From the NCBI RefSeq assembly GCF_041886205.1, contig NZ_CP169029.1: a stretch of DNA of 64,000 bases; one strand, 5' to 3'. The translations under genes and the position numbers were made by a program. The notes beneath the pieces are model-generated. The model was not told the origin of the DNA. It saw nothing but the letters and a program-made list of their open reading frames with translations, and ran no database searches. How positions within the stretch are numbered: the stretch's first letter is position 1; each line of letters starts with the position of its first letter. The DNA is from Escherichia coli. Its GTDB lineage: Bacteria > Pseudomonadota > Gammaproteobacteria > Enterobacterales > Enterobacteriaceae. Shown one piece after another: positions 1 to 13,660 of the stretch.

Positions 1-575
1 CCAAAACAGCACAGCAGCACATCGCCCGGCTGTGCCGCTGACAACGGCACCTGATACAGCCCCGTCGCCTCCAGATTGCGTTTCACCCACGAAGCATGGC
101 CGCCATTGTCACCAAGAAAATCCCCGCCCTGCGACATAGCGATGGAAAGAGCAGGTATTGATTCGTAGTACGCCAGCATTTCAGAAAGGATCGCATCCAG
201 TTTCCTTATCGGAAAATAGGCCTGGTCATAGTTGCGATCCACCCGAAACTGGAACTCGTGATAATCATCATCGAGCTGAATGAAGTATTTACACCCGACC
301 AGTTTTGCCAGGTCGAAACAGGCATTACGGGCGTAAAAAATTGAGCGGCGGTCACAGAAATTATCGGCTTCGTCAAAACGACTGGCGATATCGGCTTTGG
401 AAAACACCAGCACCTGTTCACCAAATTCAGCCATGTACTGATGCCGTGTCTTATCTTCATCATCAACAACGATAAAAATTTTCCCGGTATAGCCAGCACG
501 ACGCAACGTCCGGTAAGTCAGAACTTTGTCCGGTCGCCCGTGAGTCAGAATAAAGGCGCAAAAATCATCACGCAT
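1..575 (-). CDS. Hypothetical protein, N-terminal ~191 aa only (gene continues past window start); weak GT-A-like motif pattern
   Basis: Own translation of the minus strand from ATG at 573-575: MRDDFCAFILTHGRPDKVL...IFIVVDDEDK...YFIQLDDDY. Start overlaps the stop of the upstream ParB-like gene (ATGCGTGA). Not in the ORF track because there is no stop inside the window. Confidence 0.5.
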   Translation of the reverse strand, partial: MRDDFCAFILTHGRPDKVLTYRTLRRAGYTGKIFIVVDDEDKTRHQYMAEFGEQVLVFSKADIASRFDEADNFCDRRSIFYARNACFDLAKLVGCKYFIQLDDDYHEFQFRVDRNYDQAYFPIRKLDAILSEMLAYYESIPALSIAMSQGGDFLGDNGGHASWVKRNLEATGLYQVPLSAAQPGDVLLCCF

Positions 576-1359
576 ATTCCTCCTCCTCACCACCATGCAT
601 GATCTCCACCATGCGCTGCGTCATCCGGACAAATCCATTTTCAATAGCCTGCTGATAATCAATGATCACCAGCGCCGACTCCTCGAAAAAACACTGAATT
701 TCAGCGGGGGCGTGAGCGTAATAGTCCGCAATTCTGCTGAAATTAAACACCGTGTGACGTTCTGCCGCACACAGGAGGAATTTCTCAATATCAGGCTCAA
801 GGGAAGCCAAACGTATCCGGCTGATCAGCTCCTGCGTTTTCGTATCGTCGTACAGTTCACTGATATCCGGTTTACCGCCCGACGGCTCATAAACAGGCGT
901 ATCAATTTTCGTCGTATACGGCTCCTCCTCATTTCCTGTACCGGGCAAAACATCCGTCAACAGTTCATCAATTTCTGTCGGGATGAAGCCTGTCAGGGAG
1001 ACATCAAAATCAGCATTGATTAGGTCCGACAGCTCCATCCGCAACAGATCTTCATCCCAGCCAGCATTCATCGGCAGGCGATTATCTGCCAGGCGGTACG
1101 CCTTTTTCTGCTCATCCGTCAGGCCAGACAGAACAATGACCGGAACAGAATCCATTTTGAGCATTTCAGCCGCCATAACACGACCGTGACCCGCAATAAT
1201 TTCGCCCTTTTCGTCAATCAGCACCGGATTAGTCCAGCCGAATTGCTTAATACTTTCTACCAGTTGTGCCACCTGCTCAGGGCTGTGCGTCCTGGCGTTG
1301 TGCGCATACGGTGACAATTCTTGTAATGGGCGATAGACTATCTTTAATTTCTCGCTCAT
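568..1359 (-). CDS. ParB-like nuclease domain (ParB/Srx fold) protein, 263 aa
   Basis: N-terminal ~100 aa resemble the ParB N-terminal domain (…AGHGRVMAA…); C-terminal 150 aa unrecognised. Good RBS (AAGGATG) before ATG. Position after trkG mirrors the Rac-prophage arrangement. Confidence 0.6.
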   Translation of the reverse strand: MSEKLKIVYRPLQELSPYAHNARTHSPEQVAQLVESIKQFGWTNPVLIDEKGEIIAGHGRVMAAEMLKMDSVPVIVLSGLTDEQKKAYRLADNRLPMNAGWDEDLLRMELSDLINADFDVSLTGFIPTEIDELLTDVLPGTGNEEEPYTTKIDTPVYEPSGGKPDISELYDDTKTQELISRIRLASLEPDIEKFLLCAAERHTVFNFSRIADYYAHAPAEIQCFFEESALVIIDYQQAIENGFVRMTQRMVEIMHGGEEEEYA

Positions 1360-1496
1360 ACATCCTTGCTTTATGAATAAAACGCACCCCAGCAGCCAGT
1401 GCTACTGGGGGCGGAGGTGTTGCTGGTAAAGTTAGGTATTGGATCAATGAGTGAGTCAACATAATATTAAACTCACAATTATAAATCAGCCATATA

Positions 1497-2954
1497 TTAG
1501 GAGCGCCAAAAAAAACCTGAAAACAAAATAATAACAGGATAAATTTCAAGGCGACCAAGAATCATAGCTATGCACATTAAATATTTTGCAATGTCATTAA
1601 GCACTCCGAATGACGATGCAGTAGCCCCAAAACCTAATCCCATATTATTAATACATGCAGCCACTGTTGCAAATGATGTAAGAAAATCATATCCCATACC
1701 ATTTAACACCAGTATAAAAAACACCGTGAAGAGAGTATAAAGAAAAAAGAAACTCCATACAGACCTCATTACACGATCTGTAACTATCTTCCCTCCTACA
1801 TTTACACTCAACAACGCTCTGGGATGAGAAAGCTGATTTATCTCGTGTTTGCTTTGTTTGAAAAGTATAAGAAATCGAAGTGACTTAATTCCACCACAAG
1901 TTGAACCTATACATCCCCCAAAGAAACTTGACAACAGCAAAAACACTATCGTGTGCGTGGGCCAGCTTGCATAATCCTGCATAGCTAAACCATTATCAGT
2001 GAGCATGGAGCTGGCAAGAAAAAACGAATGAATAAAACTTCCATGCAAGTCATACATACCTATATGCCAGACCTGGAAAGAGGTAACAATGATCACCCCT
2101 AAGGCTATTAACAGAAAGAAACGAAGTTCAATATCTCTGATTAAAGGTTTTATCGTTTTCCTGCTAATAACAATATACCAAAGAGTGAAGTTGAAAGCCG
2201 ATAGCAGGGAAAAAGAACCAGCCACCAGCTCAACCAAATAGTTATTAAAATATCCGATACTCTCGCTATGAGTTGAGAAACCACCAAGCGAAACTGTGGA
2301 AATCCCGTGACAAATAGCATCAAACAAAGGCATTCCTGCAAGTCTATAACAGACAATACAAGCAATACCTAATAAAGAATAAGTTATCCACAGTGTCCGT
2401 GACGTATCGGCCAGGCGGGGAGTGAGTTTGTCATCCTTAAATGGCCCCGGCATTTCTGACTGATAAAGCTTTGCACCACCAATACCCAATAATGGCAATA
2501 CAGCAACCGCCAGAACAATAACTCCTAAACCACCTATAAAATTTAACTGTGACCGATAGTACAAATATGCCCGAGGTAATGAACTAACATCATCAATTAC
2601 AGTTGCTCCTGTTGTTGTTATTCCAGAAACCCCTTCAAACAGAGCATCAATGAACGTTAAATTAAGTTCTGAGTCAATCCATAAAGGGAATGCACTAATA
2701 ACAGAAAACAAAATCCAAAACATTACAATTATAATAAACCCATCACGGGTACGTAATTGAATGCCAGATTTCTTAGTTGTATACCACGCTCCGCCACCAA
2801 TGCAAAAAAATATAACGAAAGTTATAAAGAAAACGAACAGGCTTTTTTCTTTATAAAACAATGCTACAACCATTGGTGGCAACATTGAAAGACTATAGAG
2901 CCAAACCAGGAACCCACACATATGAGTAACAACTCTTACATGAGATGTATTCAT
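1497..2954 (-). CDS. trkG: TrkG/TrkH-family potassium uptake membrane protein (prophage-borne)
   Basis: Translation from MNTSHVRVVTHMCGF… gives 485 aa, multi-pass membrane protein with Trk-type motifs; AT-rich codon usage. The ORF track starts 6 codons upstream (2972). Confidence 0.85.
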   Translation of the reverse strand: MNTSHVRVVTHMCGFLVWLYSLSMLPPMVVALFYKEKSLFVFFITFVIFFCIGGGAWYTTKKSGIQLRTRDGFIIIVMFWILFSVISAFPLWIDSELNLTFIDALFEGVSGITTTGATVIDDVSSLPRAYLYYRSQLNFIGGLGVIVLAVAVLPLLGIGGAKLYQSEMPGPFKDDKLTPRLADTSRTLWITYSLLGIACIVCYRLAGMPLFDAICHGISTVSLGGFSTHSESIGYFNNYLVELVAGSFSLLSAFNFTLWYIVISRKTIKPLIRDIELRFFLLIALGVIIVTSFQVWHIGMYDLHGSFIHSFFLASSMLTDNGLAMQDYASWPTHTIVFLLLSSFFGGCIGSTCGGIKSLRFLILFKQSKHEINQLSHPRALLSVNVGGKIVTDRVMRSVWSFFFLYTLFTVFFILVLNGMGYDFLTSFATVAACINNMGLGFGATASSFGVLNDIAKYLMCIAMILGRLEIYPVIILFSGFFWRS

Positions 2955-3091
2955 ATCTAAATATTCTTTCAATTATAACCACCTTGCTGCAATATTATGA
3001 TTATACTGTATAAAATTTAACTCCTCTTAGATCTTACTTCACTGTTCCTTATGAAACAATCATCAAAATGAATCATATTGTAGTTAAGATT

Positions 3092-3556
3092 TTACTTTAA
3101 ACACTGTTCGGTTATGTATTGCTGAGCACCTTCAAGTTGGGCCTGCATCATTACCAGTCGTTCCCGGAGGGTGAAATAATCCCGTTCAGCGGTGTCTGCC
3201 AGTCGGGGGGAGGCTGCATTATCCACGCCGGAGGCGGTGGTGGCTTCACGCACTGACTGACAGACTGCTTTGATGTGCAACCGACGACGACCAGCGGCAA
3301 CATCATCACGCAGAGCATCATTTTCAGCTTTCGCATCAGCTAACTCCTTCGTGTATTTTGCATCGAGCGCAGCAACATCACGCTGACGCATCTGCATGTC
3401 AGTAATTGCCGCGTTCGCCAGCTTCAGTTCTCTGGCATTTTTGTCGCGCTGGGCTTTGTAGGTAATGGCGTTATCACGGTAATGATTAACAGCCCATGAC
3501 AGGCAGACGATGATGCAGATAACCAGAGCGGAGATAATCGCGGTTACTCTGTTCAT
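3092..3556 (-). CDS. Rz i-spanin (lysis protein)
   Basis: [51 protein letters not shown]… closely matches lambda-family Rz. ATG overlaps the endolysin-frame stop. Confidence 0.85.
3151..3336 (-). CDS. Rz1 o-spanin lipoprotein, embedded in Rz in the +1 frame
   Basis: …[42 protein letters not shown]… with lipobox and proline-rich segment typical of Rz1. Exact start uncertain. Confidence 0.75.
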
Positions 3557-3570
3557 TGCTGACCCCACAA

Positions 3571-4050
3571 ACAGATTTCACGCTCAATCTCACGACGAGT
3601 CATGAGACCTTTCCATTGCTTACCGCCAGCATATGTCCAGCGACGTAGCTGATCACATGCGCCTTTGATATCGCCCTAGTTTATTTTGCGAAGAAGCGTC
3701 GATGTTCTGAAATTGCCAGCACCCACGTTGTAAACGAATGAGTAAAGAGCGCCGCGCATTGTTTCCGGTATATCGACTTTGATGTACGGGTTAATTTGTC
3801 TGGCGACCGTGGCAAGGTCTTTATTCAGGAGGGCTTTGCATTCTGCTTTGGTATACGTTTTACCGGGAATGATGTCTTTTCCTGTATGCCCGTGACATAC
3901 AGTCCATACACCAACAATATCTTTGTATGGTATGTAGCTGACACCTTCCAGACCATCGTTACCACTTGGGCCAGTAATTAACACTGATGCTATAGCAATT
4001 GCTCCGCCACCAATAGCAGCAGCAACGGCTTTTCGTAATGATGGAGGCAT
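3571..4050 (-). pseudogene. SAR-type endolysin (phage-21/DLP12 RrrD-like lysozyme) interrupted by an in-frame amber codon
   Basis: ORF ends at TAG (3676-3678) after 124 aa. The same frame continues for 34 more codons ([40 protein letters not shown]) to a TGA overlapping the Rz start. Looks like a CAG-to-TAG change. Confidence 0.7.
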
Positions 4051-4265
4051 TATTCACCTCTCGCAGCCTTGCGCTTATCTTCTTTAATCTTGAAATAAAG
4101 GTTTGTCAGGTACGTCAGCAGGCCAAATACCAGGCTACCCAGCACACCTATTGCTGCCCACTGTGAGGGCGTGACTTTATCGAGCAGCTGTAAAAACCAG
4201 TAACCGGCACTACCTGCTGAGGTGCCATAGGCGACACCCGTTGTTAACTTATCCATGGATTTCAT
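4050..4265 (-). CDS. Class II holin / pinholin (S21-like)
   Basis: [71 protein letters not shown]; two closely spaced Met starts as in phage-21 S. ORF-track start at 4310 is probably too far upstream. Confidence 0.8.
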
Positions 4266-4385
4266 AACCCCACCTCGCAGACAAAGCGGGTGTAAATTGA
4301 GGGAATACAACGTATCGCAAAAAAGCAGAAACGTAACAGACTCGGAGTCAGTGAATAACTCAGGTATTGGGTTATCAGCTAATAT

Positions 4386-4426
4386 CGAGACTCAAAAAAT
4401 GGAAAAACCCGCTCGACGGCGGGTTT
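4386..4426 (-). terminator. Candidate rho-independent terminator on the minus strand just upstream of the holin (possible tR'-like element)
   Basis: Minus-strand hairpin AAACCCGCCGTCGAGCGGGTTT followed by TTCCATTTTTTGAG. Confidence 0.4.
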
Positions 4427-4852
4427 AAGCTGTGTGACGAAGTAACCACTCTTAACAGCATAACCAATTTTTTACGTACGTAAACCACTAAATGATATTT
4501 GCGAGAATGCTACCGAGTATTGAAAACACCACTACAAATACATAAGCAAATCTCAACAAATAACCAACAAATAATTTCCAGCGTTATTTTTAGCTGGTTT
4601 AAATTGAACCTTCAAATTATAGAGCACTTATAAATAACAGCCATTAATATAAATTGGCTAATAGATTTATTTTTATTCAGCCAAGAGCCATGAATAGGAT
4701 TCGATAGAAAAAGTTCAGATAAAAATAGAGATCTACTTCACAAATCAAATGAGAAACCAAAACTTACATCTTGAAATAATCACATTGATTAGATGAATAT
4801 TTATCGCGCAGTGACATCATTTTTTAATAATAGTTCAAAAAAAGGGCTCACG

Positions 4853-5935
4853 ATGAAAAAATTAACAGTGGCAATTTCTGCTGTAGCTGCATCAGTACTG
4901 ATGGCGATGTCTGCTCAGGCAGCTGAAATTTATAATAAAGACAGTAACAAGCTGGATCTGTACGGGAAAGTTAATGCTAAGCACTACTTCTCCTCTAATG
5001 ATGCAGATGATGGTGATACTACTTATGCCCGTCTTGGCTTCAAAGGTGAAACCCAAATCAACGATCAACTGACTGGTTTCGGTCAGTGGGAATATGAATT
5101 CAAAGGCAACCGCGCTGAATCTCAAGGTTCCTCCAAAGATAAAACCCGTCTTGCCTTCGCTGGCCTGAAATTCGGTGACTACGGCTCCATCGATTATGGC
5201 CGTAACTACGGTGTAGCATACGATATTGGTGCATGGACCGACGTTCTGCCAGAATTCGGTGGCGATACCTGGACCCAAACAGATGTATTCATGACTGGTC
5301 GCACCACAGGTGTTGCAACTTATCGTAACAATGACTTCTTTGGTCTGGTTGATGGTCTGAACTTTGCTGCTCAGTATCAGGGTAAAAATGACCGCACTGA
5401 CGTAACTGAAGCTAATGGTGATGGTTTCGGTTTCTCCACTACTTATGAGTATGAAGGATTCGGTGTAGGTGCAACCTATGCTAAATCTGACCGCACTAAT
5501 AATCAGGTTATCTACGGTAACAACAGCCTGAATGCATCTGGTCAAAATGCTGAAGTATGGGCAGCTGGTCTGAAATATGATGCGAACAACATCTATCTGG
5601 CTACCACCTATTCTGAAACCCAGAACATGACTGTTTTTGGTAATAACCATATTGCCAACAAAGCACAAAACTTCGAAGTAGTTGCACAATATCAGTTCGA
5701 CTTCGGTCTGCGTCCGTCCGTTGCTTACCTGCAATCTAAAGGAAAAGACTTGGGTGCGTGGGGTGATCAGGACCTGGTTGAATATATTGATGTAGGTGCA
5801 ACCTATTACTTCAACAAAAATATGTCCACTTTTGTTGATTACAAAATCAACCTGATTGATAAGAGCGATTTCACGAAAGCATCTGGCGTTGCTACCGATG
5901 ATATCGTTGCTGTAGGTATGGTTTACCAGTTCTAA
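4853..5935 (+). CDS. nmpC: Outer-membrane general porin of the OmpC/OmpF/NmpC (phage Lc) family; appears intact
   Basis: [23 protein letters not shown] signal peptide, C-terminal …VGMVYQF, typical porin composition. Sits between Q and S on the opposite strand, as in DLP12 and PA-2. Confidence 0.8.
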
Positions 5936-6072
5936 TTTGATTACTAAAAGATATGTTGCGGGAGGCTTTGCCTCCCCAACATATAAGTGGCTCCCTCAAG
6001 CCACTTCCTTTAGGAGCACAACCTTGCTTCTAACTATATAAACCTTCTGTTATATATTACCCTTTATTTTTG

Positions 6073-6100
6073 GGGGCGTCTCAACGCCCCATTTTTAATA
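6073..6100 (+). terminator. Rho-independent terminator downstream of the porin gene
   Basis: GGGGCGTCTCAACGCCCC hairpin followed by ATTTTTAATAATTTTT. A second long hairpin (ATGTTGCGGGAGGCTTTGCCTCCCCAACAT) lies at 5957-5988. Confidence 0.5.
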
Positions 6101-6123
6101 ATTTTTAGTAAACAATTGGCATA

Positions 6124-6507
6124 TTAATTAGAGTTATTAACAACGATATCCATCTCTAACCGGATATCTAATGCCATTAACATCCCTTCAATTATGCCCT
6201 CAGCCTTCTGTAACCTTTTCCCGATATAACCATCAGAGCAGCAATGCTTACCTGCCAGTGACATGAATGTCATACCGACTACATAATAATCTACTAATAA
6301 ATCGTGCAAATCGCTGTTGTTCTTTTTCAGACGGGCCATGCACCCGCAAATAATCATCGCGTCATCGTCACAACATTGCGGGCGAGATTTTACTTTTGAA
6401 GTAATTAATCCCTTAAAACCGGCGGCAATGGACGACCAGGTCACATCTTCATGATTATTAGCCGCCCACGCTCCCCAACGCTCAAGAACCATCTGAATAT
6501 CACGCAT
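6124..6507 (-). CDS. quuD: Q-type late-gene antiterminator (DLP12 QuuD-like)
   Basis: [34 protein letters not shown]…[16 protein letters not shown]…; the ORF track extends 5 codons upstream. Confidence 0.8.
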
Positions 6508-6592
6508 CAACTTACTCCACAAAAATCAGACCAGAACGCCAATTACAAGCAAAAATCAACGAAACAGTATTAGTTGATTGTTATCTCTGACT

Positions 6593-6730
6593 TCATACTC
6601 CTGCTCCTGTCAGGGTTTTGGCGTAATTCTTCAGTATTCGGTAATCGGTCAAAACAGAACCGGGGAAACGATATAAGCGCAGACGCCCCCAGCGGTGGCG
6701 AAGACGTTCTGCCATATAAAACTCAAACAT
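6593..6730 (-). CDS. ylcG: Small nin-region ORF (YlcG-like, 45 aa)
   Basis: Own translation [48 protein letters not shown] overlaps the rusA stop (TGATG). Below the ORF-track size cut-off. Confidence 0.5.
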   Translation of the reverse strand: MFEFYMAERLRHRWGRLRLYRFPGSVLTDYRILKNYAKTLTGAGV

Positions 6731-7092
6731 CATTCATTCCCCATTTCGGTGATGGTCAGTTCCAGCCTCCCACCTTTGGTAACAGGCATCTTCACAACGC
6801 GGTAATCAACGACCTGAGCATCATCCAGCCAGAAACCTGCTTTAGTGAGTGCGTCAAAAGCGGCTTTTTGCAGATTATCCAGGTCACGGCGACGGCGATC
6901 CGGCATGTGGCACTCAATGCGGATTTTCACAGGCATAGCCAAGCCGATATCCAGCATTGCGTTTTTAATGATTCGGGCGACGTTATCGCGGTATGCCTGC
7001 CCCTCTGCGCTGACGTGCGTGCGCCCGCGATTATGGCGGTAATAGCGATTATTGCTCGGAGGCCAGGGTAATGTGATGCTGTAGGTATTCAC
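6730..7092 (-). CDS. rusA: RusA Holliday-junction resolvase
   Basis: [108 protein letters not shown]… 120 aa. Confidence 0.9.
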
Positions 7093-7379
7093 GCCTTAAT
7101 AACCCCCTCTTTCAGCCAGATAACCTGTGTTCTCGCCATACCTTCCAGCGCGCATTCTTTTGCATATGCAGCATCGACAAAATGTGTGCGGCGGTCGATT
7201 TCGTCGTGGCAGGCAGAACATGCAATGGTGGCAATCAGGTCTGGCGGTTTGGTACCGGTGCCGCACAATCCAGTCAGCCGGATATGTGCCAGTACAGACG
7301 TTTCAGGGTTACCATTACATACGCCAGGGATTCTTACCTGGCATTCCCGACTACGCGCTGCTTTTCTCAAATCAGCCAT
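7089..7379 (-). CDS. ybcO: Nin-region protein YbcO-like (96 aa)
   Basis: [67 protein letters not shown]…; ORF track starts further upstream at 7418. Confidence 0.75.
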
Positions 7380-7542
7380 GATTCCTCCTTGCTGCCAGTC
7401 GCAACCATTTTTTATCAACCAGGCTGGCGGTATATCCGAGCAGTGTTGGTATTTCGGAAGGTTTCAGCTCCGGTTTACGCTTACGACGATTTGGTACTCT
7501 GTAGATGTGTCCGTTCATGACACGAATAAGCGGTGTAGCCAT
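7372..7542 (-). CDS. ninE: NinE-like protein (56 aa)
   Basis: Own translation [56 protein letters not shown]; start overlaps ybcN stop, stop overlaps ybcO start. Confidence 0.75.
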   Translation of the reverse strand: MATPLIRVMNGHIYRVPNRRKRKPELKPSEIPTLLGYTASLVDKKWLRLAARRNHG

Positions 7543-7951
7543 TACGCCTCCTGCTTGTCACGGAGCTGCTGGAACTCGCAGCTCTGCGGAATAGTCAGAT
7601 GGCAGCCAATATTCACCGCCCAGGCTTCAACCTTACACAGGAAGACATACATCTCTCCGGTATCAAGATCGGAGGTATGGCGTAACGACTGGATAGTGGT
7701 GATATCACCGGTTACGACATCAACCAGGTCTTTGGTTTCATAACCGAGATATGTGTGTTTGAGAGCATCTTTTACCCAAGCTGGAGTGGCGAACGTTTTA
7801 CCCCTGCTGATGAGGTATTCACTGATTTCGCTGTACCACATGTGGCTGAGTGCATTCTGGGAAAGACTGCGTTTCTCACGCCACGGTTTAAGCACCATGA
7901 ACCGCCCCGGGAATCCTGGAGACTAAACTTCCTGAGAAAGAGGTAAACAGG

Positions 7952-8274
7952 ATGACTAAAAATACTCGTTTTTCCCCCGAAGTCCGTCAACGGGCAGTCC
8001 GTATGGTTCTGGAAAGTCAGAGCGAATATGACTCACAATGGGCGACAATTTGTTCCATTGCTCCAAAGATTGGCTGTACGCCGGAGACTCTGCGTGTCTG
8101 GGTTCGCCAGCATGAGCGGGATACCGGGGGCGGTGATGGAGGGCTCACCACCGCTGAACGTCAGCGTCTGAAAGAGCTGGAACGTGAAAATCGTGAACTG
8201 CGCCGCAGTAACGATATCCTTCGCCAGGCTTCCGCTTATTTTGCGAAGGCGGAGTTCGACCGCCTCTGGAAAAA

Positions 8275-8278
<4 letters not shown>
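7952..8278 (+). CDS. IS3-family transposase OrfA (HTH + leucine zipper)
   Basis: [60 protein letters not shown]…. Confidence 0.85.
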
Positions 8279-9166
<888 letters not shown>

Positions 9167-9270
9167 GTTCACAGATAAAACACTCTCCAGGAAACCCGGG
9201 GCGGTTCACCATGCGAAAGCATTTGCCCTCCTCCAGATAAGGCTGGATCTGCCGACCGATAGCGGTGAAG

Positions 9271-9558
9271 TTACCGCGATGTAATTTTATGCCGTCTTGT
9301 GGGAGGTTCACGCTTCACCTCCGCAGAGGCCAAACGCTGGATGCAAAAAATCGCAGGTGCATTTCTGCATCTGTGAATGGAGAAGATAGGTTGGTTTGTA
9401 TGTGCGCATAACCCCAAATCTTCATACGTTACGGTATCAAGGTAATAATCACTATTTACCTTTAGCCATTCAGTAATAAGCCTTCTCTGGCGGTTTAATG
9501 AATCACCAGACATCTGACCTGGTGATGAAAATCGCATATATGCTATGGCTTTTTTCAT
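9271..9558 (-). pseudogene. 5' fragment of a serine recombinase / resolvase gene (DLP12 YbcK-like)
   Basis: First ~50 aa (MKKAIAYMRFSSPGQMSGDSLNRQRRLITEWL…) look like a resolvase catalytic N-terminus; the rest is non-homologous and overlaps the ybcN start, implying a deletion junction. Confidence 0.5.
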
Positions 9559-9813: not shown

Positions 9814-10146
9814 TTAATGTGGTGTGCTTCGTGACAATAAATTAATAACCAACACACCGGCACAAATCAACATCATGCCTATAATGGCTGGCAGGTCCAA
9901 CCGTTGGCCGAAAAATCCCCATGATAGTAAGCTAATCAGGACAATACCGACTCCTGACCAGATAGCATAAGCAATCCCTGTAGGAATATAAGCCAGCGTC
10001 TGAGCTAATAACCAGAATGATGCACAATAACAAATAATTGTACCAACAGATGGCCATAACCGTGTAAAACCTTCTGAAAACTTCATTAAGGTTGTACCAA
10101 TGACCTCTGCAAGTATTGCACCACCAAGATAAATATAAGGATTCAT
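9814..10146 (-). CDS. emrE: Small multidrug resistance efflux protein EmrE (110 aa)
   Basis: MNPYIYLGGAILAEVIGTTLMKFSEGFTRLWPSVGTIICYCASFWLLAQTLAYIPTGIAYAIWSGVGIVLISLLSWGFFGQRLDLPAIIGMMLICAGVLVINLLSRSTPH; the ORF track starts 18 codons upstream. Confidence 0.9.
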   Translation of the reverse strand: MNPYIYLGGAILAEVIGTTLMKFSEGFTRLWPSVGTIICYCASFWLLAQTLAYIPTGIAYAIWSGVGIVLISLLSWGFFGQRLDLPAIIGMMLICAGVLVINLLSRSTPH

Positions 10147-10213
10147 AGCATATTCTTTCCTGTTCAAACTGGAGAGAATTGTACTACAGTTTGAACTCAA
10201 CTCACCTGTTTCA

Positions 10214-10516
10214 TCATTGTGTACCCATTGATGTTCTTTTATATACCCTCAATACCCGTTTCATCGCGGCACTCTGGCGACACTCCTTAAAAATCAAATT
10301 CGTGCTCACCTTTCCTTCCCATTCTTCTCTGGTAGCGAACCGATAATACACCGTTCGCCAGACCTTACCATCAACGACCAGGATTCCTGCCCGCGCCATT
10401 TTAGCCGCAGCCTGATTTATGCTGGTTACCGTTGCGCCTGTTACCGCGGCAACGTCCTGCGCACAGAATTTCTTATGAGTCCCCAGGTAATGAATAATTG
10501 CCTCTTTGCCCGTCAT
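10214..10516 (-). CDS. ren: Lambda Ren-like protein
   Basis: MTGKEAIIHYLGTHKKFCAQDVAAVTGATVTSINQAAAKMARAGILVVDGKVWRTVYYRFATREEWEGKVSTNLIFKECRQSAAMKRVL…. Confidence 0.8.
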   Translation of the reverse strand: MTGKEAIIHYLGTHKKFCAQDVAAVTGATVTSINQAAAKMARAGILVVDGKVWRTVYYRFATREEWEGKVSTNLIFKECRQSAAMKRVLRVYKRTSMGTQ

Positions 10517-10901
10517 ACCCTTGCTCCTTTCAGCCCAAACTTAGCTTTGATTTCTGCGATCTTCGCCAGAGCCTGTGCACGATTTAGAGGTCTACCGCCC
10601 ATGACAGGAAGTTGTTTTACTGGTTCAGGTATAGCCTCACCACGGTTAATTCGCGCGGTCATACAGGCCAGTTCATCGGCAGCCTTGCGCCGTAATTCCG
10701 CGTCAGTCAACGCATTGGCCCGCATGTTCTGGTAGCCAGGCTCGCCGGGAAAGTTGCCAGTAACTGGCTGAACACACCATTGATGATCTGCGCTACCAGC
10801 TGTACCTGCGGCTTTTCGTCGTACTGTTCCGGCATGTTATTGGCGATCCGACGCATCTGCTCACGGTCAAAGTTAACCATCTGTGCGGCGATGTTTTTCA
10901 T
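10513..10901 (-). pseudogene. P: Replication protein P with an internal out-of-frame deletion
   Basis: N-terminal fragment MKNIAAQMVNFDREQMRRIANNMPEQYDEKPQVQ…ATFPASLA (10707-10901) and C-terminal fragment …YQNMRANALTDAELRRKAADEL…AKFGLKGARV (10513-10725) lie in different frames, joined near 10730. Confidence 0.75.
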
Positions 10902-11425
10902 AAATCCACCCCATAAATCCAGTCAGTGTTTGTCAGGTCGAGTTTTGATTTTCCGGCTGTCACGCCAGCCTGTTGCTTGTTACGGTTGATTTCGAGTTGG
11001 GTCCACTTGTCGCGGAGTTTGGCCGGACATAGCACGTTACCGGACCAGAAGTTGTCCTGGCATGCCCAGCGGAACAGCACGCACATGTCGCGGTGGTTAC
11101 GTCCGTCACGTTCACGCATCAGGCGGATATCGTTAGCCCACCCTGCAAAATTCGGTTTTCTGGCTGATGGCGCGATGGTCTTCACCATGTCAAACATCCA
11201 CTCTGCGGCGGTCAGGTCTTCTGCTGTCCCCCACTTGCTGCCGCTCTGAATTGCAGCATCCGGTTTCACCACAGGAAGATCGTTTTCTGGCTGGTCAGAG
11301 GATTCGTCAGAATTCTCGGACGAAAAAGGTTTTATATTGTCTTTTGTTAGTTTGTCTTTTGTGTTTACCTGATTCGGGTAAACGCCTTTAATCGAACAAG
11401 ACCCGTTAGTAACTATCGACATCAT
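10898..11425 (-). pseudogene. O: C-terminal remnant of replication initiator O; N-terminal domain and ori are absent
   Basis: …KDNIKPFSSENSDESSDQPENDLPVVKPDAAIQSGSKWGTAEDLTAAEWMFDMVKTIAPSARKPNFAGWANDIRLMRERDGRNHRDMCVLFRWACQDNFWSGNVL… matches the lambda O C-terminal domain. Upstream sequence is from the left arm (ea22 3' end), so the gene is truncated at a deletion junction. Confidence 0.75.
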
Positions 11426-11716
11426 TACGCATCGCTATTACGGGGTTGGAGGTCAATGGGTTCAGGATGCAGGTGAGTATCTGCATATGATGTCTGACGC
11501 TGGCATTCGCATCAAAGGAGAGTGAGATCGGTTTTGTAAAAGATAACGCTTGTGAAAATGCTGAATTTCGCGTCGTCTTCACAGCGATGCCAGAGTCTGT
11601 AGTGTCAGATGATGACCGTACTCAAACATCGGGTTGAGTATTATCTTACTGTTTCTTTACATAAACATTGCTGATACCGTTTAGCTGAAACGACATACAT
11701 TGCAAGGAGTTTATAA

Positions 11717-11998
11717 ATGAGTATCAATGAGTTAGAGTCTGAGCAAAAAGATTGGGCGTTATCAATGTTGTGCAGATCCGGTGTCTTGTCTCCATGCAGA
11801 CATCACGAAGGTGTTTATGTAGATGAAGGTATAGATATAGAGTCGGCATACAAATATTCCATGAAGGTTTATAAGTCTAATGAAGACAAATCCCCATTCT
11901 GCAATGTGCGAGAAATGACTGATACCGTGCAAAATTATTATCACGAGTACGGTGGAAACGATACTTGCCCTCTCTGTACAAAACATATAGATGATTAA
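11717..11998 (+). CDS. ea8.5: Lambda Ea8.5 protein (93 aa)
   Basis: MSINELESEQKDWALSMLCRSGVLSPCRHHEGVYVDEGIDIESAYKYSMKVYKSNEDKSPFCNVREMTDTVQNYYHEYGGNDTCPLCTKHIDD; correct spacing relative to xis/int. Confidence 0.85.
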   Translation: MSINELESEQKDWALSMLCRSGVLSPCRHHEGVYVDEGIDIESAYKYSMKVYKSNEDKSPFCNVREMTDTVQNYYHEYGGNDTCPLCTKHIDD

Positions 11999-12293
11999 AC
12001 CCAATATTACATAACAATCCTCGCACTCGCGGGGATTTATTTTATCTGAACTCGCTACGGCGGGTTTTGTTTTATGGAGATGATAAATGCACTTCCGAGT
12101 CACAGGAGAATGGAATGGAGAGCCATTCAACAGAGTTATCGAAGCGGAGAACATCAACGACTGCTACGACCACTGGATGATATGGGCGCAGATAGCACAT
12201 GCAGACATAACCAATATTCGAATTGAAGAACTGAAAGAACACCAAGCCGCCTGATGGCGGTTTTTTCTTGCGTGTAATTGCGGAGACTTTGCG

Positions 12294-12512
12294 ATGTACT
12301 TGACACTTCAGGAGTGGAACGCTCGCCAGCGACGCCCAAGAAGCCTTGAAACAGTTCGTCGATGGGTGCGCGAATGCAAGATATTCCCTCCTCCGGTTAA
12401 GGATGGAAGAGAATATCTGTTCCACGAATCAGCGGTAAAGGTTGACTTAAATCGACCAGTAACAGGTAGCCTTTTGAAGAGGATCAGAAATGGGAAGAAG
12501 GCGAAGTCATGA
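12294..12512 (+). CDS. xis: Excisionase Xis (72 aa)
   Basis: MYLTLQEWNARQRRPRSLETVRRWVRECKIFPPPVKDGREYLFHESAVKVDLNRPVTGSLLKRIRNGKKAKS; overlaps the int start as in lambda. Confidence 0.95.
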   Translation: MYLTLQEWNARQRRPRSLETVRRWVRECKIFPPPVKDGREYLFHESAVKVDLNRPVTGSLLKRIRNGKKAKS

Positions 12513-13560
12513 GCGCCGGGATTTACCCCCTAACCTTTATATAAGAAACAATGGATATTACTGCTACAGGGACCCAAGGACGGGTAAAGAGTTTGGATTA
12601 GGCAGAGACAGGCGAATCGCAATCACTGAAGCCATACAGGCCAACATTGAGTTATTTTCAGGACACAAACACAAGCCTCTGACAGCGAGAATCAACAGTG
12701 ATAATTCCGTTACGTTACATTCATGGCTTGATCGCTACGAAAAAATCCTGGCCAGCAGAGGAATCAAGCAGAAGACACTCATAAATTACATGAGCAAAAT
12801 TAAAGCAATAAGGAGGGGGCTGCCTGATGCTCCACTTGAAGACATCACCACAAAAGAAATTGCGGCAATGCTCAATGGATACATAGACGAGGGCAAGGCG
12901 GCGTCAGCCAACTTAATCAGATCAACACTGAGCGATGCATTCCGAGAGGCAATAGCTGAAGGCCATATAACAACAAACCCTGTCGCTGCCACTCGCGCAG
13001 CAAAATCAGAGGTAAGGAGATCAAGACTTACGGCTGACGAATACCTGAAAATTTATCAAGCAGCAGAATCATCACCATGTTGGCTCAGACTTGCAATGGA
13101 ACTGGCTGTTGTTACCGGGCAACGAGTTGGTGATTTATGCGAAATGAAGTGGTCTGATATCGTAGATGGATATCTTTATGTCGAGCAAAGCAAAACAGGC
13201 GTAAAAATTGCCATCCCAACAACATTGCATGTTGATGCTCTCGGGATATCAATGAAGGAAACACTTGATAAATGCAAAGAGATTCTTGGCGGAGAAACCA
13301 TAATTGCATCTACTCGTCGTGAACCGCTTTCATCCGGCACAGTATCAAGGTATTTTATGCGCGCACGAAAAGCATCAGGTCTTTCCTTCGAAGGGGATCC
13401 GCCTACCTTTCACGAGTTGCGCAGTTTGTCTGCAAGACTCTATGAGAAGCAGATAAGCGATAAGTTTGCTCAACATCTTCTCGGGCATAAGTCGGACACC
13501 ATGGCATCACAGTATCGTGATGACAGAGGCAGGGAGTGGGACAAAATTGAAATCAAATAA
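12490..13560 (+). CDS. int: Lambda-type tyrosine integrase Int (356 aa), apparently intact
   Basis: MGRRRSHERRDLPPNLYIRNNGYYCYRDPRTGKEFGLGRDRRIAITEAIQANIELFSGHKHKPL… with C-terminal …HELRSLSARLYEKQISDKFAQHLLGHKSDTMASQYRDDRGREWDKIEIK. Confidence 0.95.
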   Translation: MGRRRSHERRDLPPNLYIRNNGYYCYRDPRTGKEFGLGRDRRIAITEAIQANIELFSGHKHKPLTARINSDNSVTLHSWLDRYEKILASRGIKQKTLINYMSKIKAIRRGLPDAPLEDITTKEIAAMLNGYIDEGKAASANLIRSTLSDAFREAIAEGHITTNPVAATRAAKSEVRRSRLTADEYLKIYQAAESSPCWLRLAMELAVVTGQRVGDLCEMKWSDIVDGYLYVEQSKTGVKIAIPTTLHVDALGISMKETLDKCKEILGGETIIASTRREPLSSGTVSRYFMRARKASGLSFEGDPPTFHELRSLSARLYEKQISDKFAQHLLGHKSDTMASQYRDDRGREWDKIEIK

Positions 13561-13660
13561 TGATTTTATTTTGACTGATAGTGACCTGTTCGTTGCAACA
13601 AATTGATAAGCAATGCTTTTTTATAATGCCAACTTAGTATAAAAAAGCAGGCTTCAACGG
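13561..13660. other. attL prophage-host junction: phage P' arm (13561-13633), 15-bp core (13634-13648), bacterial arm
   Basis: …GTTGCAACAAATTGATAAGCAATGCTTTTTTATAATGCCAAC TTAGTATAAAAAAGC AGGCTTCA…; the sequence left of the core is the lambda attP arm, the sequence right of it runs into the ybhC upstream region. Confidence 0.9.

What the first reader, a model, noticed from the sequence alone, without database searches (positions are those of the whole stretch)
10513..10901. Replication gene P carries an internal, out-of-frame deletion
The N-terminal ~56 codons and the C-terminal ~70 codons of P are both present, but in different frames and joined near 10730. Together with the truncated O this confirms loss of replication capacity by at least two independent lesions.
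Basis: seen in the sequence. Interest (0 to 1): 0.3.

Follow-up and report, generated by a model that had tools for sequence, protein, structure and literature searches.

The report
Broken phage replication gene P
This is the dead remnant of a lambda-type phage replication gene (P) that lost 313 bases from its middle, one of several deletions in a decayed prophage beside ybhC; it is an ordinary pseudogene.

Summary
Window 10513-10901 (minus strand) is a lambda-type P gene of 389 nt instead of 702 nt. One 313-bp internal deletion (P nt 168-480, junction at window 10735|10734, 2-bp TA microhomology) removes codons 57-160 and shifts the frame. The first 56 codons run into 8 foreign codons and a TGA at 10709-10707. 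Codons 161-233 survive in another frame, with a 70-aa ORF from Met164. Neither compact domain of P (II, III) is intact.

The neighbouring O gene is truncated by a separate, much larger deletion. It joins O codon ~175 to the inside of lambda ea22 at 11388-11390 and removes the O DNA-binding half, four of five origin iterons, and everything that lies between O and ea22 in an intact phage (by the standard lambda map: cII, cro, cI, N, recombination genes).

The same two junctions occur, base for base, in E. coli wlxctx60 and in 10 independently assembled contigs. The exact 64-aa product is recorded on 23 contigs, so the deletion is real and marks a rare lineage. Strain 573 has the same O breakpoint but an intact P, so the lesions are separate events.

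RefSeq already marks the gene as a frameshifted pseudogene. I found no evidence of function. Interest is low.

The parts
10513..10901 (-). P pseudogene (389 nt; an intact gene is 702 nt). The start ATG at 10901-10899 overlaps the O stop; the stop TGA at 10515-10513 overlaps the ren start.
   Evidence: RefSeq annotates the identical sequence in wlxctx60 as 'hypothetical protein, frameshifted'.
10734..10735 (-). Deletion junction. P nt 167 (window 10735) is joined to P nt 481 (window 10734); 313 bp are missing. The TA dinucleotide (10734-10733) is present at both end points, so the exact position is ambiguous by 2 nt.
   Evidence: Split-point scan, k = 167-169 against A20 P; repeat contexts.
10707..10901 (-). 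N-terminal ORF: P codons 1-56, then 8 out-of-frame codons (TRTCGPMR), then TGA.
   Evidence: PHROG 109 profile positions 1-55.
10513..10734 (-). C-terminal remnant: P codons 161-233 in the other frame. The ORF runs from Met164 (ATG at 10725), 70 aa.
   Evidence: PHROG 109 profile positions 163-233; Pfam PF06992 21.1 bits, below its cut-off of 26.
10898..11390 (-). 5'-truncated O gene (C-terminal ~165 codons). It contains the last origin iteron (TTTACCCGAATCAGGTAAA) and the AT-rich stretch.
   Evidence: PHROG 277 'replication initiation O-like' profile positions 146-317 of 318.
11388..11390 (.). Junction of O' with the inside of lambda ea22 (TTA microhomology). This is the second, large deletion.
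11391..13648 (+). Lambda left-arm remnant: ea22 3' end, ea8.5, orf55, xis, int and the att core (13634-13648). With the 3-bp junction overlap (11388-13648) it is 99.25% identical to lambda 29984-27724. ybhC follows.
10214..10516 (-). Intact ren (100 aa), immediately downstream of P'.
   Evidence: PHROG 142.

Best explanation
This is a dead remnant of the helicase-loader gene P in a decayed lambda-like prophage at the lambda attachment site next to ybhC. A single illegitimate-recombination or slippage event between two TA dinucleotides removed P nt 168-480 (313 bp). Translation of the first 56 codons therefore runs out of frame and stops after 8 more codons, and codons 161-233 are left stranded in another frame. 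The loss covers residues 57-160: most of domain II and the first 41 residues of domain III. No loader can be made. A separate deletion from inside O to inside ea22 had already removed, or also removes, the O DNA-binding half, four of five iterons and the whole interval that holds the early-control region in an intact phage. The P lesion is most likely neutral decay of a gene that was no longer expressed or needed. Shown: the two junctions, the frames, the missing residues, and recurrence in independent assemblies. Inferred: the single-event mechanism, the order of events, and the absence of expression.
For: Gap of 313 columns and 389 versus 702 nt. Junction, frames and stop codon. An intact P in E. 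coli A20 is 100% identical on both flanks and already has TACCAGAAC on the right side, so no extra substitution is needed. Lambda P domain limits are I 1-29, II ~30-119, III ~120-192, IV 193-233 (PMC12661323). An in-frame deletion of codons 9-86 alone abolishes replication initiation and P toxicity (PMC3640518). The O'|ea22' junction is documented. No sigma-70-like promoter was found in 10100-12100 on either strand, against 3.3 expected by chance. There is no other P or O copy in the window. Identical P' and both junctions occur in wlxctx60 and in 10 independently assembled contigs, and the exact 64-aa product is recorded on 23 contigs. Strain 573 has the same O breakpoint and an intact P.
Against: The order of the two lesions is not proven, because O' in strain 573 differs by 2.6% from the window and may not share direct ancestry. 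An 8-bp direct repeat ACCAGAAC lies next to both end points, 306 bp apart. A two-step route (an in-frame 306-bp slip plus a 7-bp loss) gives the same product and cannot be excluded. Absence of a consensus promoter does not prove absence of transcription.
Confidence: 0.84

Rival explanations
1. The deletion was selected rather than neutral. P is toxic to E. coli because it sequesters DnaB, and a trapped prophage that fires its origin kills the cell (replicative killing). On this view, cells that lost P function, and separately O/ori, were favoured.
For: P-lethality and replicative killing are experimentally established, and survivors carry deletions or insertions in O, P or ori (PMC4926192; PMC3640518). 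Both replication genes are hit here, while the neighbouring ren and emrE are intact.
Against: Once the O-ea22 deletion had removed the segment that contains the early promoter and most of the origin, P had no obvious expression and no origin to fire, so nothing was left to select against. Strain 573 keeps an intact P next to the same truncated O. With a single lineage, selection cannot be distinguished from drift.
Confidence: 0.12
2. The fragments are functional. The 175-aa ORF that carries the O C-terminal (P-binding) domain, and/or the 64-aa and 70-aa P fragments, would be expressed and act as decoys that interfere with replication of superinfecting lambdoid phages.
For: All three ORFs are open and conserved base for base in every carrier. 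Lambda O residues 156-299 form a soluble C-terminal domain, and P 103-233 binds DnaB (PMC12661323; PMC6391071). Plasmids carrying O plus the first 36 or 63 P codons were toxic (PMC3640518). Partial lambda replication regions can exclude phages that use the lambda replication region (PMC3349717).
Against: Identity among carriers reflects recent clonal descent, not constraint. No promoter-like site was found. The known exclusion phenotype needs oop and iterons 3-4, which are deleted here. The C fragment lacks residues 103-160 of the DnaB-binding construct, and domain III is cut in half. PGAP calls both genes pseudogenes.
Confidence: 0.03
3. It is an assembly or sequencing artefact, or a natural short in-frame P variant.
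For: None beyond the a priori possibility.
Against: The identical 389-nt sequence occurs in a complete RefSeq genome and in 10 contigs from different sequencing projects. The two halves are in different frames with a stop 8 codons after the junction.
Confidence: 0.01

Closest known systems
Bacteriophage lambda gene P (helicase loader, NP_040632; Pfam PF06992, PHROG 109)
   Same: The first 167 nt and last 222 nt are collinear with lambda P (55/56 and 70/73 residues identical). The O-P-ren order is the same, with the same 4-nt overlaps at both gene boundaries.
   Different: It lacks nt 168-480 (residues 57-160), the frame is shifted, and no full-length product is possible. Neither fragment reaches the Pfam gathering score.
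peaD (b4508), the P pseudogene of cryptic prophage DLP12 in E. coli K-12
   Same: It is a P remnant followed by ren, emrE and ybcK in a defective lambdoid prophage, and it is annotated as a pseudogene.
   Different: peaD is a 5' truncation that keeps only P nt 391-702, next to an exo remnant, and lies at the argU site. The window has an internal deletion that keeps both ends, at the lambda att site. The breakpoints are not shared.
Replicative-killing-resistant (RK-) mutants of trapped lambda prophages (Hayes laboratory)
   Same: Small frameshifting deletions in O, deletions fusing iterons, and insertions or deletions in P that abolish initiation from the lambda origin (PMC4926192).
   Different: Those mutants were selected in the laboratory under induction. 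Here the origin of the lesions is natural, and selection is not demonstrated.
Intact O-P-ren-emrE-ybcK module of wild lambda relatives (PhiR34_1, 4A7, Perceval, Turner, Lambda_4C10)
   Same: 97% nucleotide identity over O', P', ren and emrE, in the same gene order.
   Different: Those phages have a 1020-nt O with five iterons and a 702-nt P.

Membership tests
Lambda P-type helicase loader (PF06992 / PHROG 109), as a functional gene | One continuous reading frame of about 233 codons | tested here: not met
   389 nt; the frame shifts after codon 56 and a stop follows 8 codons later.
Lambda P-type helicase loader (PF06992 / PHROG 109), as a functional gene | Profile match above the curated threshold | tested here: not met
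   Pfam: the N fragment has no hit; the C fragment scores 21.1 bits against a cut-off of 26. NCBIfam: no hit. PHROG 109 matches only profile positions 1-55 and 163-233.
Lambda P-type helicase loader (PF06992 / PHROG 109), as a functional gene | Intact compact domains II (~30-119) and III (~120-192) that sit on DnaB | tested here: not met
   Residues 57-160 are deleted; domain limits are from PMC12661323.
Lambda P-type helicase loader, as a gene remnant (homology only) | Nucleotide collinearity with P on both sides of the gap, and the position between O and ren | tested here: met
   97% identity to P of PhiR34_1; both flanks 100% identical to A20 P; O' lies upstream and ren downstream.
Defective (cryptic) lambdoid prophage | Bounded by an att core next to the known integration site, with essential modules missing | tested here: met
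   The att core at 13634-13648 is followed by ybhC. O' abuts ea22' directly, so the whole interval between them is missing. ybcK is truncated, and the tail genes are pseudogenes in the wlxctx60 annotation.
Functional lambda-type replication origin | An array of O-binding iterons followed by an AT-rich region, inside an intact O gene | tested here: not met
   Only the last of five iterons and the AT-rich stretch remain.

The most novel reading that the evidence does not exclude
The conserved open fragments (the O C-terminal domain ORF of 175 aa at 10898-11425, the P N-terminal 64-aa ORF and the P C-terminal 70-aa ORF) are expressed at a low level. They protect the host by titrating the O-P-DnaB assembly of incoming lambda-type phages, which would make this a domesticated replication-decoy defence.
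Probability: 0.03. Interest if true: 0.5.

Novelty: already known. Interest (0 to 1): 0.08.

Why it matters
It matters little. The result documents one more step in the decay of a prophage: the replication module is hit twice, while the cargo genes ren and emrE stay intact. The exact junction (CCTGGCTA|CCAGAAC) is a convenient marker for one rare E. coli lineage. The only point of wider interest is the side observation that two different relics share the same breakpoint inside the phage origin. If that recurred in more genomes, it would suggest the origin is a deletion hotspot in trapped prophages.

Tried and rejected
(1) I asked whether the K-12 DLP12 remnant peaD shares the right-hand breakpoint, because K-12-like hits stopped at window 10734. 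It does not. peaD extends 90 nt further into P (nt 391-702), and the match ended only because the query changes there.

(2) I asked whether a T-to-C substitution beside the junction was needed, since lambda has TATCAGAAC. It is not, because intact P alleles such as A20 already read TACCAGAAC.

(3) I looked for an in-frame 306-bp slip variant between the 8-bp repeats ACCAGAAC. None appeared among the cluster members I examined; they are C-terminal partials.

(4) I scanned for the P junction 32-mer in IMG/VR viral contigs and in JGI metagenomes: 0 hits each.

(5) I scanned metagenomes for any non-intact continuation at the O breakpoint: 0 hits.

(6) I considered whether the 573-type O'|IS junction is common. 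It is unique to strain 573 among 5,426 genomes.

(7) I considered an exclusion phenotype from a partial lambda replication region. It needs oop and iterons 3-4, both absent here.

(8) Literature search for this relic at ybhC with emrE found nothing specific.

Full report
**What is there**

The region lies in a lambda-like prophage remnant read on the minus strand. The ORF list shows this order:
- emrE, 9814-10146
- ren, 10214-10516
- a 70-aa ORF, 10513-10725
- a 64-aa ORF, 10707-10901
- a 175-aa ORF, 10898-11425

On the plus strand follow ea8.5, a 55-aa ORF, xis, int and then ybhC. [quoted passage not shown] The two are in different frames.

**Counting the missing bases**

I aligned window 10513-10901 (minus strand) with intact P of lambda and of phage PhiR34_1. 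The alignment gives 389 versus 702 nt, with one uninterrupted gap of 313 columns.

A scan over all possible split points puts the junction after P nt 167-169, i.e. window 10735|10734. The two-base ambiguity arises because TA is present at both end points. Since 313 = 3 x 104 + 1, the frame shifts:
- Codons 1-56 are followed by TRTCGPMR and a TGA at 10709-10707.
- Codons 161-233 are retained in another frame, with Met164 (ATG at 10725) opening the 70-aa ORF.

The intact P of E. coli A20 is 100% identical to the window on both sides of the junction and already reads TACCAGAAC on the right side. No extra substitution is needed to explain the junction.

PHROG 109 'P-like helicase loader' matches the two fragments at profile positions 1-55 and 163-233 of 236. 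Pfam PF06992 hits only the C fragment, below its threshold. tblastn finds no other P or O copy in the 64-kb window.

**What the deletion removes**

The 2.66 Å DnaB-lambda P structure divides P into four domains: I (1-29), II (~30-119), III (~120-192) and IV (193-233) (PMC12661323). The deletion takes residues 57-160. Both compact domains are therefore broken.

Three experimental results bear on this:
- An in-frame deletion of codons 9-86 alone abolishes replication initiation and P toxicity (PMC3640518).
- The DnaB-binding construct tested in pull-downs was residues 103-233 (PMC6391071).
- The stranded C fragment here starts at residue 161, so it lacks 103-160 of that construct.

**The second lesion**

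Homology to O begins only at window 11390. This is codon ~175 of the 339-codon PhiR34_1-type O, equivalent to lambda O residue 132.

From 11388 to 13648 the window is 99.25% identical to lambda 29984-27724, without gaps, and ends at the att core (13634-13648). The junction reads GCCTTTA|ATCGAAC, with TTA shared by both parents.

PhiR34_1 has five iterons upstream of the AT-rich stretch. Only the last iteron and the AT-rich stretch remain here. The deletion therefore removes the O DNA-binding half and most of the origin. It also removes the whole interval between O and ea22, which on the standard lambda map holds cII, cro, cI, N and the recombination genes. O' and ea22' now lie head to head, each without its 5' end. 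No sigma-70-like promoter was found in 10100-12100, against 3.3 expected by chance.

**Is it real, and how common is it?**

- Among 5,426 complete E. coli genomes, only strain wlxctx60 (NZ_AP045833, from Japanese black bear faeces) carries the same arrangement. It is 100% identical over 1,401 nt.
- There PGAP annotates P as 'hypothetical protein, frameshifted' and O as 'incomplete, missing N-terminus'.
- The window matches wlxctx60 at 99.96% over about 30 kb, except for an extra IS3-family element in ybcN.
- The exact 64-aa product is recorded on 23 contigs from independent sequencing runs.
- All 10 fetched contigs carry the identical 389-nt P' and both junctions. Every contig long enough to show its flank reaches int, and six of them reach ybhC as well.
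- IMG/VR viral contigs and JGI metagenomes contain no copy of the junction.

This is a real allele of a rare lineage.

**Are the two lesions independent?**

The junctions are about 650 bp apart, with collinear O'/P' sequence between them. Strain 573 (NZ_CP102853) has a relic at the same chromosomal site. Its O ends at the same nucleotides but is joined to an internal point of an IS2-like element, and its P is an intact 702 nt. The O lesion therefore exists without the P lesion.

This favours the order 'O first, P later', but only weakly. The O' of strain 573 differs from the window at 13 of about 490 positions, so direct ancestry is uncertain.

**Mechanism**

The simplest reading is one illegitimate-recombination or slippage event at a 2-bp TA microhomology.

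An 8-bp direct repeat ACCAGAAC lies at P nt 176 and 482, 306 bp apart. A two-step route (an in-frame 306-bp slip, then a 7-bp loss) gives the same sequence and cannot be excluded. I found no such intermediate among the database fragments I examined.

**Why the gene decayed**

Neutral decay after loss of expression is the best-supported explanation. Selection against P toxicity or replicative killing is a known force in trapped lambda prophages (PMC4926192; PMC3640518) and remains a minor alternative.

A protective 'decoy' role for the open fragments is not excluded, but nothing supports it. The known exclusion phenotype of partial lambda replication regions needs oop and iterons 3-4 (PMC3349717), and both are deleted here.

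**Comparison with known cases**

The closest named counterpart is peaD, the P pseudogene of cryptic prophage DLP12 in K-12. It too is followed by ren, emrE and ybcK. peaD is a 5' truncation that keeps P nt 391-702, so it is a different event at a different chromosomal site.

PHROG already contains families built from P fragments (22541, 9111, 17600), and protein databases hold many partial P entries. Broken P genes are commonplace.

**Verdict**

The feature is an ordinary, already-annotated pseudogene in a decayed prophage. Interest is low.

Noticed in passing
window 11388-11390; L007 (E. coli strain 573) 5398-5404: The O breakpoint, inside the fourth origin iteron, is the same to within 0-3 nt in two different relics. 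In the window O' is joined to ea22 sequence. In strain 573 it is joined to an internal point of an IS2-like element, with less ea22 retained and an intact P. Neither arrangement derives from the other by one deletion. The cause could be a hotspot at the origin or a complex shared history.
   Followed up: partly
window ~7900-9213: A complete IS3-family element (~1.31 kb) is inserted in ybcN with a 3-bp duplication (CCA) and is absent from the otherwise near-identical strain wlxctx60. Its terminal inverted repeats begin TGAACCGCCCCGGG, orfA is at 7952-8278, an ALIL frameshift pseudoknot lies at 8233-8349, and orfB runs to 9166. From memory it resembles IS629/IS1203; I did not test that.
   Followed up: partly
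window 9403-9558: ybcK (a serine recombinase of 1,527 nt in K-12 and strain 573) is reduced to about its first 52 codons and joined to sequence upstream of ybcN. This is a third deletion in the relic.
   Followed up: partly
window 9814-10516: ren (100 aa) and emrE (110 aa, full Pfam SMR match) are intact beside the broken replication genes. Functional lambda relatives (PhiR34_1, 4A7, Perceval, Turner) carry the same ren-emrE-ybcK cargo after P.
   Followed up: partly
window 11388-13648: The int-xis-ea8.5-ea22' arm is 99.25% identical to laboratory lambda itself, whereas the O'-P'-ren arm is closest (97%) to wild lambda relatives. The relic is a mosaic.
   Followed up: partly
window 1-7900 (coordinates mapped from the L004 annotation): The rest of the relic mixes DLP12-like genes (ybcN, ninE, ybcO, rusA, ylcG, quuD, essD, rrrD, rzpD) with an ompC-like porin gene (about 4853-5935), a Rac-type trkG (about 1497-2954) and a ynaK fragment.
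   Followed up: no
P nt 176-183 and 482-489 of intact P (E. coli A20, L005): An 8-bp direct repeat ACCAGAAC lies 306 bp apart (in frame) and flanks the region deleted in the window. It is a potential slippage site in intact P genes.
   Followed up: partly
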